Of a DNA stretch of 13,516 nucleotides, positions 6,135 through 10,561 are shown one piece after another (within the stretch, counting starts at the first letter, position 1; each line of letters starts with the position of its first letter). The translations under genes and the position numbers were made by a program. Source of the stretch: a virus (Duplodnaviria > Heunggongvirae > Uroviricota > Caudoviricetes); IMG/VR virus record IMGVR_UViG_2541047764_000010; one strand, written 5' to 3'. Below the pieces are notes generated by a model. The model made no database searches and had not been told where the DNA came from. It saw only the letters and a list, made by a program, of their open reading frames with translations.

Positions 6135-6503
6135 TCAGGCGGCTTTGATAGTCATATCATCTGAATCAAATATTCCTGATGTATCGATATCGGTAATTCT
6201 TATTCCTTCGCTACCATCCATTGGAGGCCATCCTTCCTGACCATTTCCATCATTCCAGTCGAACTCACACACAACACCATATGCATTTAAGTCGCTTGAA
6301 ATTGCTATAAGCAGAGCATGTTGCGCCAGCATGATTAATACAGCATTTAATACAGAGCCGTGTTTATTGAGTCGGTATTCAGAGTCTGACCAGAAATTAT
6401 TAATCTGGTGAAGTTTTTCCTCTGTCATTACGTCATGGTCGATTTCAATTTCTATTGATGCTTTCCAGTCGTAATCAATGATGTATTTTTTGATGTTTGA
6501 CAT
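6135..6503 (-). CDS. ea10: Ea10-like early protein (122 aa; lambda Ea10 is a reported ssDNA-binding protein)
   Basis: A 122-aa ORF immediately upstream of cIII in the lambda order. Size and sequence match my recollection of lambda Ea10. Confidence 0.7.
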   Translation of the reverse strand: MSNIKKYIIDYDWKASIEIEIDHDVMTEEKLHQINNFWSDSEYRLNKHGSVLNAVLIMLAQHALLIAISSDLNAYGVVCEFDWNDGNGQEGWPPMDGSEGIRITDIDTSGIFDSDDMTIKAA

Positions 6504-6763: not shown

Positions 6764-7345
6764 ATGAACAACTCATGGTGGCAGGAACTAATGCATTTTT
6801 TCCTGCAAGGAATGACACTTAAACAGTTGATTCATATGCTAATCATCCTGATCATATTGATTATTGTTATGCCTGTAAGCGTAAAAGAATGGATAAACCT
6901 GCATAATCCAGAAATCCTTCCTCATTACTGGATGTATTACATCCTGTTGTTTTGCGTTAGCTATGTGCTTAACGGCGTTGTTAATTCCGCTTATCACGCT
7001 GTGACTGTAAGAATTGAGATATTCGCTGCTCAGAAGCGCAAATCTAAAGAAGAGAAATACGTGCAAGATTTGTTTGATTCGTTAACTCTTGGAGAAAGAG
7101 CGTATTTGGCATTCGCTGTAGCCGCTAATAACCAGCTAAAGACAGAAAAGGGAAGCCCTGAAGCAATCTCATTGCTCGAAAAAGGGCTTCTTATTCGGGT
7201 ACCTTCTGCTACTGGATATCCTGAAATCGACCGTTTTGTTATCCCGGAACGCTATAGAAATGAGTGCTACATTAGGTTTGCTGGGAAGAAAGACAGTCTT
7301 ATGGATGAACTTATCGCTCAGGATAAGCATGGCAAAAACAAGTAA
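6764..7345 (+). CDS. sieB: Superinfection exclusion protein B (SieB)
   Basis: A 193-aa ORF on the opposite strand to the pL operon, between ea10 and N, with a hydrophobic N-terminal segment (LIHMLIILIILIIVMPV) and AT-rich composition. Size, position and sequence match lambda/P22 SieB as I recall. Confidence 0.75.
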   Translation: MNNSWWQELMHFFLQGMTLKQLIHMLIILIILIIVMPVSVKEWINLHNPEILPHYWMYYILLFCVSYVLNGVVNSAYHAVTVRIEIFAAQKRKSKEEKYVQDLFDSLTLGERAYLAFAVAANNQLKTEKGSPEAISLLEKGLLIRVPSATGYPEIDRFVIPERYRNECYIRFAGKKDSLMDELIAQDKHGKNK

Positions 7346-7361
7346 TTAGCAAATGAATTTA

Positions 7362-7670
7362 TCATCTCGCCGTCAGTTGTTTTGATTTCCGGTAGCCTGC
7401 CGCGTAAATAGCTACGTTTGGCAGGCAAACACTTCCACTGCATTCATCTACTTTCTTGCAGCGAAGGCTTCCGAGTGATATTGCTTTTTCAGAAAGGCTT
7501 AACCGCTTTCTCGGGTCTTCCTGAACAGGTTCCTCACTGTCTGTGCCGAAGATCGAATCGATGATGTTGCAGATGGAATCACGCTCGATGGCCAGCTTTC
7601 TGCGCCGCTCATGACGGCGAGTTTTGGCATTTCCTGCAAATGTTGATTTTCCGTACACGATTACCGTCAT
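7362..7670 (-). CDS. N: Antitermination protein N, P22-type (gene 24-like)
   Basis: From the ATG at 7670 (GAGGA Shine-Dalgarno 7 nt upstream) the product is MTVIVYGKSTFAGNAKTRRHERRRKLAIERD... (102 aa). The arginine-rich motif matches P22 gp24, and P22-type boxB sequences are present at both nut sites. Confidence 0.88.
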   Translation of the reverse strand: MTVIVYGKSTFAGNAKTRRHERRRKLAIERDSICNIIDSIFGTDSEEPVQEDPRKRLSLSEKAISLGSLRCKKVDECSGSVCLPNVAIYAAGYRKSKQLTAR

Positions 7671-7788
7671 GATGTTTTCCTCATGTGAAATGGCTTTGGT
7701 GGTGATGCGCCAGATGCTGATCTTCTGGTTGCTGTCGTTACTGCTGCAATTCACATCACCCCAAACCCATCTCGTTTGGTATCTGTTC

Positions 7789-7822
7789 GCGCTTTGTCAG
7801 CGCATCATCGAAGTTAAAGAGC
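7789..7822 (-). promoter_or_regulatory. nutL: nutL (boxA + P22-type boxB) on the minus strand
   Basis: The minus strand reads GCTCTTTAA (boxA-like, plus 7814..7822), an 8-10 nt spacer, then GCGCTGACAAAGCGC (plus 7789..7803), a 5-bp stem with GACAA pentaloop identical to P22 nutL boxB as recalled. Confidence 0.85.
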
Positions 7823-7859
7823 CTGCCAATCTGTTCCGTTTGGCTGCCAGCGTCCTGCT

Positions 7860-7915
7860 GATGGCGATTATAATGAACCAATAGTTCGATATTATCAAGA
7901 ACTATAAGTACGAAT
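7860..7915 (-). promoter_or_regulatory. Candidate pL promoter and OL operators
   Basis: A minus-strand TATAAT (plus 7867..7872) lies about 40 nt upstream of nutL; no good -35 hexamer is seen. Two 15-bp sites spaced 24 bp apart, TGAACCaatAGTTCG (7874..7888) and AGAACTataAGTACG (7898..7912), share a consensus with three sites in the cI-cro region. Confidence 0.45.
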
Positions 7916-8080
7916 TGTTTGTGGTTCATTAACTTAATGAGATATGTTTTTGATATGTAAAGGAATTTATTTTTGTAAAGATTGAAGATTGGTCAGTAGG
8001 AGAGAAAGAATTGTTTGCTGGCGTGTTAGTTCGTGGGTTAGCACATGTGCGGATGTTAAATAAGGTAGACGATCGTGAGG

Positions 8081-8106
8081 AAAAGAAAAACCGGCGCTGA
8101 GGCCGG
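8081..8106 (-). terminator. Rho-independent terminator (minus strand) 6 nt downstream of the 299-aa gene; analogous in position to lambda timm
   Basis: On the minus strand, a CCGGC-cucagc-GCCGG hairpin (plus 8091..8106) is followed by UUUUUCUUUU (plus 8081..8090). Confidence 0.6.
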
Positions 8107-8112
8107 GTATAA

Positions 8113-9012
8113 TTATTTGATTATTTCTTTTATAAAGACTTCTTTCGGTTGGTATTTTTTATCTGATGATTTGAGCTGGTACGTTATTGTTATATCAGCA
8201 CGTACAGAAAATTTACCTGCAAAATCTGATGGGTTTACGTTGGGGCCAAGAACCATATTTACTCTTCGATCTATTAATCCAGGGATAACAGCAGCCCAAC
8301 CTTTCTCTGGATTGTCGAGGTCTAATGCACGGATTTCAACATCAACATCAAAATGATCCTGAGTATATGACTCTGGTGTGAAGACAACTTCAGTTGGGGC
8401 TTTTTTAATGGTTTCAGCGGGAATGGTCACTGTACCACCCCCTGTACCTATGACCATCGTAGATCCTTCGTCTGCCCTAGCTGGGGCAAGCGTCTTAATG
8501 GAACTTTTGGCAAGAGTCTTCTTATTGGTTACCGTGCTTTCTATGATTGCTTGAAGACGGTCAGGTGAAATATTAGCCTCACCGGCACCAATATTGATGA
8601 TTGTATTGTTATTTGCTTCAAAGTGGGAGGTGTTGCTTGGAGCCATAGCCTTAGTTGCTAGAACTAAGCCATATCCAACCAGACCAATAACAACAGCACC
8701 AACGAGAGCGTTTCTCATTTTCCCATTTCCGATCTTTGCATGAGCGCCAGCAAGAAACTTGTCCATTTCTTCTTGGCTACCAAAGAGGAGTTTAATAACA
8801 ATATCTTCATAAAGGCTTCCTGCTTCTAATCGCGCAACATGCACCGATATATCAAGGATATTAGCCCCTGTCAGTTCCTGCAAAACACCTTCTGATTGTT
8901 TTGCGATGGCCTCCCACCCTTGAAGGGAGGTAATCACATCTTTGATGCTTACAGGTTCTTTAGTTGAATAATATATGTTTTCGGTAAAGGTTAAAGATAA
9001 TTCTTGGGACAT
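8113..9012 (-). CDS. Unrecognised 299-aa single-pass membrane protein in the cI-distal immunity-region slot (rexAB-equivalent); candidate exclusion/defence protein
   Basis: A long ORF with a GAGGG Shine-Dalgarno 6 nt upstream of the ATG and a terminator after the stop. One strongly hydrophobic segment (NALVGAVVIGLVGYGLVLATKA, about residues 103-125) has K/R on its N-terminal side. The gene looks AT-rich relative to its flanks. No homology recognised. Confidence 0.7.
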   Translation of the reverse strand: MSQELSLTFTENIYYSTKEPVSIKDVITSLQGWEAIAKQSEGVLQELTGANILDISVHVARLEAGSLYEDIVIKLLFGSQEEMDKFLAGAHAKIGNGKMRNALVGAVVIGLVGYGLVLATKAMAPSNTSHFEANNNTIINIGAGEANISPDRLQAIIESTVTNKKTLAKSSIKTLAPARADEGSTMVIGTGGGTVTIPAETIKKAPTEVVFTPESYTQDHFDVDVEIRALDLDNPEKGWAAVIPGLIDRRVNMVLGPNVNPSDFAGKFSVRADITITYQLKSSDKKYQPKEVFIKEIIK

Positions 9013-9141
9013 CCGAGCCCTCGCTGTTTCTTTCGATTTGCTGTGTTAAGCTAATATTTTAATATCCATGTTTCTGTTTGCTTGCAGTGTGTTTCTCACC
9101 ACCATCCAAACGTACTGGTTACTAGCTATGTGATGATGAAG

Positions 9142-9849
9142 TCATGAACTTTTCAGCCATTCCCTGGCCTCGATGTCATCTAGGTGGCGAGATTGCTTCA
9201 GAATACCAGCTACATACTCCACCTTTGCTACTTGATGATAAGGCAACGTTATTGGCCTGTGGTCTTGGTTGATGCTTGTAAATTGGTATTCTCCGTCTCT
9301 GTCATAGCCAAGAACCTTGATCATGTTGTGCCCTTCAATGGTTCTGACAAACACCTCATCACCTGGGAATACTTTGGTGTTAGGCTCAATGAGTACATAT
9401 TCTCCTGATTTTATTCTGGGCCACATGCTGTCTCCTTTTACACGAAGACCAAAGGCATCTGGATCATCGCTATAAATCTTGAGCCACCCATCGCGCTCTT
9501 CGGTCATCTCGATGGCACCATCAACACCAAGAATTGCCTCACCAACCACGCGCACTAACCCTTTTTTTAATTTGCCAACAATTGAAAAAGTATCTTCATC
9601 ATTCGCTCCATTTAACGAAGTGCCGTGCTGAAGCCAAACAACATCAACGTTTAGAAATTTCGCAAGCGCATTCATTTTTTCCTGGCGTGGTAAAGACTCA
9701 GCATTAAACCATTTGCTAACGCCTTTGGACGAAAGAGAAAGGGCACGGGCTATGGCCATTCCCCTACCATGTTCATCAAGACCAGCTTCTTTACAGGCTT
9801 GCGCTAGCCGCTGGGCGAATTCTTTGCGCACTTTTTCATTCTGAACCAT
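9142..9849 (-). CDS. cI: cI-type prophage repressor (N-terminal HTH plus C-terminal S24 LexA-like autopeptidase domain)
   Basis: A 235-aa ORF divergent from cro. The C-terminal region has the S24 signature (GDSMWP Ser nucleophile context, conserved Lys in IKVLGYD). The N-terminal region has an HTH-like segment (GMAIARALSLSSKGVSKW). The sequence differs from lambda cI, so this is a different immunity type. Confidence 0.85.
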   Translation of the reverse strand: MVQNEKVRKEFAQRLAQACKEAGLDEHGRGMAIARALSLSSKGVSKWFNAESLPRQEKMNALAKFLNVDVVWLQHGTSLNGANDEDTFSIVGKLKKGLVRVVGEAILGVDGAIEMTEERDGWLKIYSDDPDAFGLRVKGDSMWPRIKSGEYVLIEPNTKVFPGDEVFVRTIEGHNMIKVLGYDRDGEYQFTSINQDHRPITLPYHQVAKVEYVAGILKQSRHLDDIEAREWLKSS

Positions 9850-9912
9850 GAGTACGATACTAAAGCACTTGCAAAAACTTTCAGTTCAACCATAATGCGT
9901 ACTGAAAGTACG
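9842..9912. promoter_or_regulatory. OR region: candidate pR promoter and three 15-bp operator sites
   Basis: Plus-strand TTGCAA (9869..9874), a 16-bp spacer and CATAAT (9891..9896) give a plausible pR. Candidate operators are TGAACCatgAGTACG (9842..9856, overlapping the cI start codon), AAAACTttcAGTTCA (9874..9888) and the perfect palindrome CGTACTgaaAGTACG (9898..9912, over the predicted pR start). Confidence 0.5.
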
Positions 9913-9927
9913 AAAAAGGACATTCCT

Positions 9928-10155
9928 ATGCAAAATCTTGATGAGCCGATTAAAGGTGTCGGCATCCCTGAAGTTGCGAAGGCTTGTGGAGTTAGCGAAA
10001 GGGCTGTCTATAAGTGGCTCAAAAACGGCTTCCTCCCTAAGACTGAGTTTTTTGGGAAAACGAAATACGCATCAAAAATCGAAGAGATTTCTGGTGGCAA
10101 ATATCAAGCAAGCGAAATGCTTGAAATAAGCAAAAAGAACCTTCTGGCAGCATAA
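9928..10155 (+). CDS. cro: Cro-like HTH repressor (75 aa)
   Basis: The ATG at 9928 has an AAGGA Shine-Dalgarno 7 nt upstream. The product MQNLDEPIKGVGIPEVAKACGVSERAVYKWLKNG... has an HTH and is divergent from cI. The upstream ATG at 9895 lies inside the promoter/operator and lacks a Shine-Dalgarno. Confidence 0.75.
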   Translation: MQNLDEPIKGVGIPEVAKACGVSERAVYKWLKNGFLPKTEFFGKTKYASKIEEISGGKYQASEMLEISKKNLLAA

Positions 10156-10162
10156 GTAACAC

Positions 10163-10197
10163 CGCTCTTTATCAATCTGCACCGCCGACAACGCGGT
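10163..10197 (+). promoter_or_regulatory. nutR: nutR (boxA CGCTCTTTA plus P22-type boxB)
   Basis: CGCTCTTTA at 10163..10171 and ACCGCCGACAACGCGGT at 10181..10197, matching the P22 nutR boxB as I recall it, immediately downstream of cro. Confidence 0.85.
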
Positions 10198-10239
10198 AAC
10201 TAATTAAGAACTCATCGAAAGATGCGTATTAGTGATTAT

Positions 10240-10284
10240 TTACCTATGGAAATAGTAAGAAATGGAACAAACAAATTACAGCAA
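10240..10284 (-). promoter_or_regulatory. Candidate cII-dependent pRE promoter (TTGC-N6-TTGT box) on the minus strand overlapping the cII start
   Basis: The minus strand reads TTGCTGTAATTTGT (plus 10271..10284), resembling the TTGC-N6-TTGC cII recognition repeat, followed about 20 nt later by TACTAT as a possible -10. Confidence 0.3.
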
Positions 10285-10561
10285 ACTATCACAGCGCGAC
10301 GTTGATCGCGCAGAAACAGATTTACTTATCAACCTGTCAACGCTTACTCAGCGCGGTCTGGCAAAGATGATTGGCTGTCATGAATCGAAGATAAGCAGAA
10401 CAGACTGGAGGTTTATAGCTTCGGTCTTGTGTGCTTTTGGCATGGCATCAGACATCAGTCCGATTAGCAGAGCTTTTAAGTATGCGCTTGATGAAATCAC
10501 CAATAAAAAACGCCCGGTGTGCAAGACCGAGCGTTCTGAACAAATCCAGATGGAGTTCTGA
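10262..10561 (+). CDS. cII: cII transcriptional activator (lysogeny establishment)
   Basis: A 99-aa ORF whose C-terminus ...TNKKRP..TERSEQIQMEF matches the lambda cII C-terminus; the N-terminal half is divergent but contains an HTH-like segment. It sits between nutR and O. Confidence 0.85.
   Translation: MEQTNYSKLSQRDVDRAETDLLINLSTLTQRGLAKMIGCHESKISRTDWRFIASVLCAFGMASDISPISRAFKYALDEITNKKRPVCKTERSEQIQMEF

What the first reader, a model, noticed from the sequence alone, without database searches (positions are those of the whole stretch)
9842..9912. Family of 15-bp operator-like sites shared by the cI-cro region and the pL region
Five sites fit a common pattern of two 6-bp half-sites separated by 3 bp, with half-site consensus roughly AGT(A/T)CG: CGTACTgaaAGTACG (9898..9912, a perfect palindrome), AAAACTttcAGTTCA (9874..9888), TGAACCatgAGTACG (9842..9856), TGAACCaatAGTTCG (7874..7888) and AGAACTataAGTACG (7898..7912). 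The OR sites lie in the pR spacer, over the predicted pR start and over the cI start codon; the OL sites are 24 bp apart next to a TATAAT upstream of nutL. This defines the likely immunity specificity of this cI, which is not lambda's. The assignment of these sites as operators is inference.
Basis: partly seen in the sequence, partly recalled or inferred. Interest (0 to 1): 0.45.

Follow-up and report, generated by a model that had tools for sequence, protein, structure and literature searches.

The report
Known phage 933W repressor operators
The five 15-bp sites are real, but they are the already mapped operator sites of Shiga-toxin phage 933W, here carried with an almost identical repressor and an identical Cro by a lambda-like phage, so the finding is correct but ordinary.

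Summary
All five 15-mers are at the stated coordinates. The core pattern G-W-A-C-Y-N3-R-G-T-W-C has 4 exact matches in the window against 0.07 expected. With one mismatch allowed it finds exactly the five sites and nothing else.

The sites are operators of a non-lambda immunity, and that immunity can be named: bacteriophage 933W (imm933W). OR3, OR2, OR1, pRM and pR, as annotated in the 933W reference record NC_000924.1, map by exact string match onto window 9842-9856, 9874-9888, 9898-9912, 9857-9884 and 9869-9896. OL1 is identical to the 933W site. OL2 differs at two central positions (7' and 6') that also vary naturally.

The cI is 232/235 identical to 933W cI, with an identical DNA-binding domain that includes S41, K42 and K46. 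Cro is 75/75 identical. The published description of the 933W sites fits site by site: 15 bp, symmetric about a central base pair, three OR sites, two OL sites and no OL3.

The backbone is a lambda-like phage (Jouyvirus, 1H12/Lambda_ev group), a natural counterpart of the laboratory hybrid lambda-imm933W. About 8% of complete E. coli genomes carry this cI/OR block. Novelty: already known. Interest: low.

The parts
9898..9912 (.). OR1, CGTACTGAAAGTACG. Both half-sites are CGTACT. It starts 2 bp after the pR -10 and covers the pR start region. It is the highest-affinity site in 933W.
   Evidence: Exact match to the oR1 feature of NC_000924.1 and to OR1 of GQ499361 and KU238067. Its affinity rank is from PMC3317979 and PMC5977221.
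9874..9888 (.). OR2, AAAACTTTCAGTTCA. It lies in the pR spacer, overlaps the last base of the pR -35 and overlaps the annotated pRM -35. It is the only site with A instead of G at position 2 of one half-site.
   Evidence: Exact match to oR2 of NC_000924.1. The position-2 peculiarity is described for 933W OR2 in PMC3317979.
9842..9856 (.). OR3, TGAACCATGAGTACG. It overlaps the cI start codon and the predicted pRM start. Occupancy represses pRM.
   Evidence: Exact match to oR3 of NC_000924.1. cI ORF 9142-9849 on the minus strand. The role in pRM auto-repression is from PMC5977221 and PMC4848623.
7874..7888 (.). OL1, TGAACCAATAGTTCG. It lies in the pL spacer and overlaps the first two bases of the pL -10.
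   Evidence: Identical to the site in 933W (L088, L004) and to the annotated 'OL1 repressor binding site' of GQ499361.
7898..7912 (.). OL2, AGAACTATAAGTACG. It touches the upstream edge of the pL -35. It differs from 933W OL2 (AGAACTATTGGTACG) at positions 7' and 6'.
   Evidence: Homologous position in the alignment with 933W, phage 32 and P27. The same variant is present in 13 of 73 related viral contigs.
9869..9896 (+). pR: TTGCAA, 16-bp spacer, CATAAT.
   Evidence: Promoter scan. Exact match to the feature 'pR; putative major rightward promoter' of NC_000924.1.
9857..9884 (-). pRM (pM): -10 TAGTAT, weak -35 CTGAAA. The predicted transcript starts at or next to the cI ATG, so the cI mRNA would be leaderless.
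   Evidence: Exact match to the feature 'pM; putative maintenance promoter for cI' of NC_000924.1. The depositors call it putative and I did not verify it independently. The leaderless start is inference.
7870..7898 (-). pL: TTGATA, 17-bp spacer, CATTAT. It transcribes towards nutL and N.
   Evidence: Promoter scan. Both hexamers are present in 933W in the alignment. The start site is not mapped here.
9142..9849 (-). cI repressor, 235 aa, with an N-terminal HTH domain and a C-terminal S24 autopeptidase domain.
   Evidence: Pfam HTH_3 and Peptidase_S24. 232/235 identical to 933W cI, differing only at residues 88, 90 and 171. S41, K42 and K46 are present.
9928..10155 (+). cro, 75 aa.
   Evidence: 75/75 identical to 933W Cro. 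HTH families in Pfam.

Best explanation
These are the operators of the bacteriophage 933W immunity system (imm933W), carried here by a lambda-like phage.

A dimer of the 235-aa cI repressor binds each 15-bp site. Each site is two 7-bp half-sites around a central A/T pair, with specificity in positions 2-6 (G, A/T, A, C, T/C).

At OR, binding to OR1 (start region of pR) and OR2 (pR spacer) shuts off pR and therefore cro, cII, O and P. Binding to OR3, over the cI start and the pRM start, shuts off pRM. At OL, binding to OL1 (pL spacer and -10) and OL2 (upstream edge of the -35) shuts off pL and therefore N. There is no third OL site.

Published work on the identical 933W sites and protein shows that occupancy is set by intrinsic affinities and not by pairwise cooperativity: OR1 binds about 10-fold tighter than OR2, and OR2 binds slightly tighter than OR3. 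OR3 is partly occupied in lysogens, so repressor levels are low and the prophage induces easily.

Shown here: sequence identity of the sites, promoters, cI DNA-binding domain and Cro to 933W; enrichment and clustering of the motif; and evolutionary conservation of the contacted positions.

Taken from the literature: physical binding, affinities, lack of cooperativity, and pRM activation and repression.

Inferred: that Cro uses the same sites, that the two-base OL2 difference has only a small effect, and the exact transcription start points.
For: (1) oR3, oR2, oR1, pM and pR of NC_000924.1 map by exact match to window 9842-9856, 9874-9888, 9898-9912, 9857-9884 and 9869-9896.

(2) The same OR and OL sites are annotated by independent depositors in GQ499361 and KU238067.

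(3) cI is 232/235 identical to 933W cI with an identical N-terminal domain, and Cro is 75/75 identical.

(4) The published description of the five natural 933W sites fits each site here (PMC3317979). The points of agreement are: 15 bp; symmetric about a central A/T pair; positions 4 and 5 invariant; G at position 2 except in one OR2 half-site; T at position 3 in OR1; only T or C at position 6.

(5) Enrichment and clustering of the motif.

(6) Phylogenetic footprint. In 73 viral contigs with cI at least 98% identical, extracted by flank homology and not by motif, the OL1-spacer-OL2 stretch has 14 of 23 non-core columns variable but only 1 of 16 core columns (positions 2-5 and 2'-5'). Fisher p = 0.0007. 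Position 6 changes are T/C exchanges, apart from one locus with a different base at 6' of OL2.

(7) Salmonella phage SF6 (cI 206/236 identical) keeps all five sites at the same spacing, with changes only at positions 1, 1' and 3' (A/T exchange).

(8) Natural negative control. BP-4795 has the same cI C-terminal domain but a different N-terminal domain, and it has no such motif anywhere in 7.4 kb around its cI.
Against: Nothing in the data argues against it.

Caveats:
- Binding was not measured for this phage.
- OL2 differs by two bases from the site that was footprinted in 933W.
- The three primary papers that mapped the sites and promoters (Tyler 2004, Koudelka 2004, Bullwinkle and Koudelka 2011) are not in the held library. 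Their content is known to me only through later open-access papers from the same laboratory and through database annotation.
- With the annotated pRM, OR2 is centred near -32 relative to a start at the cI ATG. This is closer than the -42 I recall for lambda OR2, so how pRM is activated from OR2 is not clear from the sequence.
Confidence: 0.95

Rival explanations
1. The sites are real operators, but the phage is functionally heteroimmune to 933W. On this view the three cI substitutions (residues 88, 90, 171) and/or the OL2 variant change specificity or the set-point of the switch enough to break cross-immunity.
For: cI differs at 3 residues and OL2 at 2 bases from 933W. One base between the pR -10 and OR1 also differs.
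Against: The whole N-terminal DNA-binding domain, the four other operators and Cro are identical. The substitutions lie in the linker and in the C-terminal domain. The OL2 changes fall at positions 6' (C to T, both tolerated according to PMC3317979) and 7' (read indirectly). The same OL2 variant occurs with identical or nearly identical cI in 13 of 73 contigs.
Confidence: 0.03
2. The 15-mers are chance palindromes in AT-rich intergenic DNA and have no binding function.
For: With 1 mismatch allowed, the number of hits alone (5 against 2.75 expected) is not significant.
Against: There are 4 exact matches against 0.07 expected. No random sequence reproduced the clustering. The sites are identical to experimentally characterised sites. 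Core positions are conserved while the centres and spacers vary.
Confidence: 0.01
3. The OR1 palindrome (9898-9912) acts as an RNA hairpin or terminator and not as a protein-binding site.
For: The terminator scan listed it on the minus strand.
Against: The stem has only 3 G-C pairs. The listed tail (CATTATGGTT) is a poor T-run. No transcript is expected to end there. The same half-sites recur in four other sites that are not hairpins with tails. It is the annotated oR1.
Confidence: 0.01

Closest known systems
Bacteriophage 933W immunity region (cI, OR1-3, OL1-2, cro). Reference record NC_000924.1. Biochemistry in PMC3317979 and PMC5977221.
   Same: OR1, OR2, OR3 and OL1 are identical. The spacings are the same (OR3-OR2 32 bp, OR2-OR1 24 bp, OL1-OL2 24 bp). 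The pR and pM annotations match exactly. The cI N-terminal domain and Cro are identical. There are two OL sites only.
   Different: OL2 has two central substitutions (ATT-G to ATA-A). cI differs at residues 88, 90 and 171. One base differs between the pR -10 and OR1, and one in the cro leader. The genes between cI and OL are replaced by one 299-aa ORF of unknown function. The N gene and the sequence left of OL differ. The closest records are lambda-like phages classified in Jouyvirus, whereas 933W is in Sepvirinae, and no stx gene is annotated in 1H12.
Laboratory hybrid lambda-imm933W (used in PMC6989128)
   Same: A lambda-type phage carrying the 933W immunity region.
   Different: The phage here arose naturally and has its own N/nutL and cargo genes. 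I did not compare the sequences.
Phage lambda OR/OL-cI-Cro switch
   Same: Divergent pRM/pR with three operators. pL has its own operators. cI combines an HTH domain with an S24 autopeptidase domain. The gene order N-(cargo)-cI-cro-cII-O-P is the same.
   Different: Lambda has 17-bp operators of unrelated sequence (none found here) and three OL sites. According to PMC5977221, in lambda short-range cooperative binding makes OR1 and OR2 fill at nearly the same repressor concentration, and lambda-type prophages control pRM through long-distance OL-OR cooperativity. The same paper reports that 933W repressor does not bind OR1 and OR2 cooperatively and that 933W has no OL3.
Phage 434 repressor-operator complex
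   Same: According to PMC3317979, the 434 N-terminal domain is the closest structurally characterised homologue of the 933W repressor N-terminal domain and served as its modelling template. That paper also reports indirect readout of the central operator base pairs for 434 repressor.
   Different: 434 has a different operator sequence and length (14 bp, from my own knowledge) and binds cooperatively.
Salmonella phage SF6/SF10 immunity region (Lederbergvirus)
   Same: All five sites are at the same spacing with conserved core positions. cI is 206/236 identical and Cro 67/75 identical.
   Different: About 81% nucleotide identity. The changes are at operator positions 1 and 1' (OR1 and OL2) and at 3' (OR3 and OL1). 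A possible extra one-mismatch site lies 33 bp beyond OL2. The backbone is P22-like.

Membership tests
933W-type (imm933W) operators | A 15-bp site, rotationally symmetric about a central A/T base pair, with conserved positions 2-5 (G, A/T, A, C) and T or C at position 6. | tested here: met
   All five sites fit. The left half of OR2 has A at position 2, exactly as described for 933W OR2.
933W-type (imm933W) operators | Sequence identity to the annotated 933W operators. | tested here: met
   oR1, oR2 and oR3 match NC_000924.1 exactly. OL1 is identical to 933W. OL2 matches at 13 of 15 positions.
933W-type (imm933W) operators | Three sites at OR, only two at OL, and no OL3. | tested here: met
   With up to 1 mismatch the only hits in the window are the five sites. 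Beyond OL2 there is only an isolated half-site, GGTTCA at 7923-7928. The absence of OL3 in 933W is stated in PMC5977221.
933W-type (imm933W) operators | A cognate repressor with the 933W DNA-binding domain, including the recognition residues S41, K42 and K46. | tested here: met
   Residues 1-87 are identical to 933W cI, and S41, K42 and K46 are present. The residue roles are from PMC3317979.
933W-type (imm933W) operators | A cognate Cro. | tested here: met
   75/75 identical to 933W Cro.
933W-type (imm933W) operators | Placement over pR, pRM and pL as in 933W. | tested here: met
   The pR and pM features of NC_000924.1 match exactly. The pL hexamers are found by the scan and are present in 933W.
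933W-type (imm933W) operators | Physical, non-cooperative binding by the repressor in the order OR1, then OR2, then OR3. | not testable with these tools
   Reported for the identical 933W sequences and protein domain (PMC3317979, PMC5977221). Not measured for this phage or for its OL2 variant.
933W-type (imm933W) operators | Cross-immunity with 933W in vivo. | not testable with these tools
   Predicted from the identity of the sites, the cI N-terminal domain and Cro. It needs plating tests.
Lambda immunity (17-bp lambda operators) | Operators matching TATCACCGC..GTGGTA near pR and pL. | tested here: not met
   There is a single 3-mismatch hit at 732-748, far from the control regions, and 40 of 200 shuffles give at least one hit.

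The most novel reading that the evidence does not exclude
This lambda-like phage is a natural counterpart of lambda-imm933W. Its lysogens would supply 933W-type repressor in trans. They would therefore exclude incoming Stx phages of 933W immunity and could raise the repressor level seen by a co-resident Stx prophage. The OL2 variant and the swapped 299-aa cargo gene in the cI operon could slightly shift the set-point of the switch. If so, carriage of such phages, whose immunity block is present in about 8% of complete E. coli genomes, could influence the spread of Stx phages and toxin release.
Probability: 0.5. Interest if true: 0.3.

Novelty: already known. Interest (0 to 1): 0.08.

Why it matters
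The result gives the phage a defined immunity group, imm933W. This is the same group as the Stx2 phage of E. coli O157:H7 EDL933 and many other Stx1 and Stx2 phages. It predicts cross-immunity between this lambda-like phage, whose closest records carry no stx gene, and medically important toxin phages. It is also an example of an immunity module exchanged between unrelated phage backbones (Jouyvirus, Sepvirinae, Lederbergvirus). No new regulatory principle is involved. The operators, the repressor's specificity and the unusual non-cooperative two-OL-site design have been published since 2004.

Tried and rejected
- I tried to read the primary mapping papers (Tyler 2004 PMC524894, Koudelka 2004 PMC524892, Bullwinkle and Koudelka 2011 PMC3133280). 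None is held, so the transcription start sites and the OL affinities could not be checked at source.
- I searched for the lambda operator consensus. There is only one chance-level hit, at 732-748.
- I looked for a third OL site. None is found at up to 1 mismatch. There is only an isolated half-site at 7923-7928, and 933W does not have it.
- I considered OR1 as a terminator hairpin because the scan flagged it. I rejected this: the tail is poor, the context is wrong, and the site is the annotated oR1.
- My first tabulation of OL variants selected loci with a motif regex, which biases core conservation. I redid it with extraction by flank homology, and only that version is used for the statistics.
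- The footprint test on OR alone is not significant: 0 of 24 core columns against 4 of 47 other columns are variable, p = 0.29. The signal comes from OL.
- Pfam and PADLOC searches of the 299-aa ORF next to cI found nothing. PHROGs places it in a family of unknown function.

Full report
**Observation**

OR3 is TGAACCATGAGTACG (9842-9856), OR2 is AAAACTTTCAGTTCA (9874-9888) and OR1 is CGTACTGAAAGTACG (9898-9912). The two left-hand sites are TGAACCAATAGTTCG (7874-7888) and AGAACTATAAGTACG (7898-7912).

I then wrote a core pattern from the published specificity of the 933W repressor: positions 2-6 and 6'-2', GWACYNNNRGTWC. It has 4 exact matches against 0.07 expected. With one mismatch it returns exactly the five sites and nothing else in the 13.5-kb window.

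The count with one mismatch is not significant by itself (2.75 expected). The clustering is significant: none of 2000 Markov-1 random sequences had five hits that each lie within 80 bp of another hit. In the complete 46.7-kb genome of the closest phage record, the only four exact matches are the OL and OR sites.

**Context**

- The ORF at 9142-9849 (minus strand) encodes a 235-aa protein with an HTH_3 domain and a Peptidase_S24 domain, so it is a cI-type repressor.
- The ORF at 9928-10155 (plus strand) encodes a 75-aa HTH protein, Cro.
- cII lies at 10262-10561, and an N-family antiterminator lies at 7362-7754 on the minus strand.
- The consensus scan finds pR as TTGCAA, 16-bp spacer, CATAAT (9869-9896, plus strand).
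- It finds pL as TTGATA, 17-bp spacer, CATTAT (7898-7870, minus strand).

OR2 therefore fills the pR spacer. OR1 starts 2 bp after the pR -10. OR3 sits on the cI start codon. OL1 fills the pL spacer and reaches 2 bp into the -10. OL2 touches the upstream edge of the pL -35.

CATTAT is present in both phages, so CATTAT is the likelier pL -10.

**Identity**

The stretch 7700-10200 is 100% identical to eleven records of lambda-like phages (Escherichia phage 1H12 and the Lambda_ev series, genus Jouyvirus). Some of these records annotate the cro product as 'Regulatory protein Cro of bacteriophage BP-933W'.

The cI-cro block is 96-98% identical to more than a hundred Stx1- and Stx2-converting phages. 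The 933W reference record NC_000924.1 annotates oR3, oR2, oR1, pM and pR. Each of those feature sequences is found by exact match in the window, at 9842-9856, 9874-9888, 9898-9912, 9857-9884 and 9869-9896.

Independent depositors annotate the same OR sites in phage P27 (KU238067), and both the OR and OL sites in phage 32 (GQ499361). OL1 is identical to the 933W site. OL2 differs at two bases: 933W has AGAACTATTGGTACG and the window has AGAACTATAAGTACG.

The window's cI is 232/235 identical to 933W cI. The three differences are at residues 88, 90 and 171, outside the DNA-binding domain. S41, K42 and K46, the residues shown or modelled to read positions 2-5, are present. Cro is 75/75 identical.

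**Fit to published biochemistry**

Bullwinkle et al. 2012 (PMC3317979) describe five natural 933W sites. Every point below holds for the sites in the window.

- Each site is 15 bp long and symmetric about a central A/T pair.
- Position 1 is poorly conserved.
- Position 3 is A in the consensus but T in OR1, and T binds more tightly.
- Positions 4 and 5 are invariant A and C.
- Position 6 is T in seven half-sites and C in three.

The one change is that the OL2 right half-site now has T instead of C at position 6', giving eight T and two C.

Chakraborty et al. 2018 (PMC5977221) give relative dissociation constants for 933W. On separate fragments OR1:OR2:OR3 is 1:10.3:15, with 1 equal to 0.3 nM. 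In intact OR the ratio is 1:13.6:26.4. The paper also states that the repressor does not bind OR1 and OR2 cooperatively and that the phage has no OL3. Partial occupancy of OR3 keeps pRM, and so the repressor level, low at about 34 molecules per cell. This explains the easy induction of these prophages (see also PMC4848623).

**Evolutionary test**

A scan of viral contigs for this cI found 336 relatives, and the best 80 (98-100% identical) were fetched. I extracted the OL region by homology of its flanks, not by the motif. Of the 80 loci, 73 contain it. The other seven are among the shorter loci held (3.8-5.3 kb) and probably end before OL.

Across the OL1-spacer-OL2 stretch, 14 of 23 non-core columns vary. 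Only 1 of the 16 core columns (positions 2-5 and 2'-5') varies, and only in two loci (Fisher p = 0.0007). Position 6 changes are T/C exchanges, with one exception at 6' of OL2 in a single locus. The central three bases vary freely. This is the pattern the binding data predict. The window's OL2 variant occurs in 13 of the 73 loci.

At OR, the four variable columns all lie outside the core positions, but that test alone is not significant (p = 0.29).

Salmonella phage SF6 is about 81% identical in DNA, with cI 206/236 identical. It keeps all five sites at the same spacing, with changes only at positions 1, 1' and 3'.

BP-4795 has the same cI C-terminal domain fused to a different N-terminal domain. 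It has no such motif anywhere in 7.4 kb around its cI, and its OR carries different repeats. This is the expected behaviour of a modular immunity determinant.

**Mechanism**

The most likely mechanism (confidence 0.95) is the 933W switch.

- cI dimers at OR1 and OR2 block pR.
- cI dimers at OL1 and OL2 block pL.
- cI at OR3 blocks pRM.
- Occupancy is governed by intrinsic affinities, without pairwise cooperativity and without an OL3-OR3 loop.
- RecA-stimulated self-cleavage by the S24 domain relieves repression.

The identity and conservation evidence was obtained here. Binding, affinities and promoter regulation come from the literature on identical sequences. Three points remain inference: that Cro uses the same sites, the size of the effect of the OL2 variant, and the transcription start points.

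The OL2 effect is expected to be small. C to T at position 6' is tolerated, and the published symmetric C-for-T change alters affinity about 2.5-fold. Position 7' is read indirectly.

One detail is unresolved. With the annotated pM and a start at the cI ATG, OR2 is centred near -32. From my own knowledge lambda OR2 is centred at -42. The geometry by which OR2-bound repressor stimulates pRM is therefore not evident from the sequence, and I could not read the primary papers.

**Rivals**

- Chance is excluded by the statistics and by the identity to characterised sites.
- A terminator reading of the OR1 palindrome (flagged) is rejected on context.
- Functional heteroimmunity despite the sequence identity is unlikely (0.03), because the DNA-binding domain, four of the five sites and Cro are identical.

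**Comparison and novelty**

The finding belongs to the 933W immunity group. Every sequence-level defining feature was tested and met. Physical binding and cross-immunity cannot be tested with these tools.

It differs from 933W only in the following respects:
- the two OL2 bases;
- three cI residues outside the DNA-binding domain;
- one base between the pR -10 and OR1, and one in the cro leader;
- the cargo gene between cI and OL;
- the N/nutL-side flank;
- the phage backbone, which is a lambda-like Jouyvirus with no stx gene annotated in the closest record, whereas 933W is in Sepvirinae.

A laboratory lambda-imm933W hybrid already exists and is in routine use (PMC6989128). The cI N-terminal domain plus OR block is present at 95% identity or more in 427 of 5426 complete E. 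coli genomes. The finding is therefore correct, well read by the first stage, and already known.

**Verdict**

Observation confirmed. Interpretation supported and made specific (imm933W). Novelty: already known. Interest 0.08.

Noticed in passing
window 8113-9012 (-), with the terminator-like hairpin at 8091-8106 (-): A 299-aa ORF lies between OL and cI. It has no Pfam or PADLOC hit and falls in PHROG 4506 (unknown function). It has one hydrophobic stretch (ALVGAVVIGLVGYGLVLA). It replaces the four 933W genes found at this position (DUF3024, RuvC-like, stk and a small ORF). It is followed by a hairpin that differs by 1 nt from 933W's annotated tM terminator. It is therefore probably co-transcribed with cI from pRM in lysogens, in the position that rexAB occupies in lambda, and could be an exclusion or lysogenic-conversion gene.
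   Followed up: partly
window 7789-7803 (boxB) and about 7814-7822 (boxA-like), minus strand: The nutL boxB hairpin GCGCTGACAAAGCGC is identical to the start of 933W's annotated nutL, although the surrounding sequence and the rest of nutL differ. A boxA-like GCTCTTTAA lies upstream on the transcribed strand.
   Followed up: partly
window about 7846-7950 and about 9114-10174: Homology to 933W-type Stx phages is confined to two blocks, OL and cI-OR-cro, separated by unrelated cargo. This is a mosaic immunity module with recombination joints just left of OL and just right of cro.
   Followed up: partly
L006 (Salmonella phage SF6) 2122-2136: A one-mismatch match to the operator core (TGTCCTTTTAGTACG) lies 33 bp beyond OL2 in the diverged Salmonella relative. 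It may be a third OL site, which 933W and the window lack.
   Followed up: no
L004, L003 and L002 (933W-type phages), for example L004 1309-1323: A conserved one-mismatch site, AGTACATCTAGTACG, lies about 630 bp from OL2 towards cI in 933W, P27 and phage 32. That region is replaced in the window. It may be chance.
   Followed up: no
window 6764-7345 (+): A 193-aa ORF in PHROG 1301 ('superinfection exclusion; inhibits SieB') is transcribed opposite to the pL operon, between N and the ORF at 6135-6503 (the homologue of a hypothetical protein of 1H12).
   Followed up: no
window 7362-7754 (-): The mechanical ORF for N starts at a GTG and is 130 aa long. The Pfam N_peptide match begins at residue 29, and the 1H12 record annotates a 102-aa product, so the true start is probably internal.
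   Followed up: no
L005 (phage 1H12 genome) 21757-25206: The closest phage record carries a sitABCD manganese/iron ABC transporter operon in the b-region, outside the window. This is an unusual metabolic cargo for a lambda-like phage.
   Followed up: no
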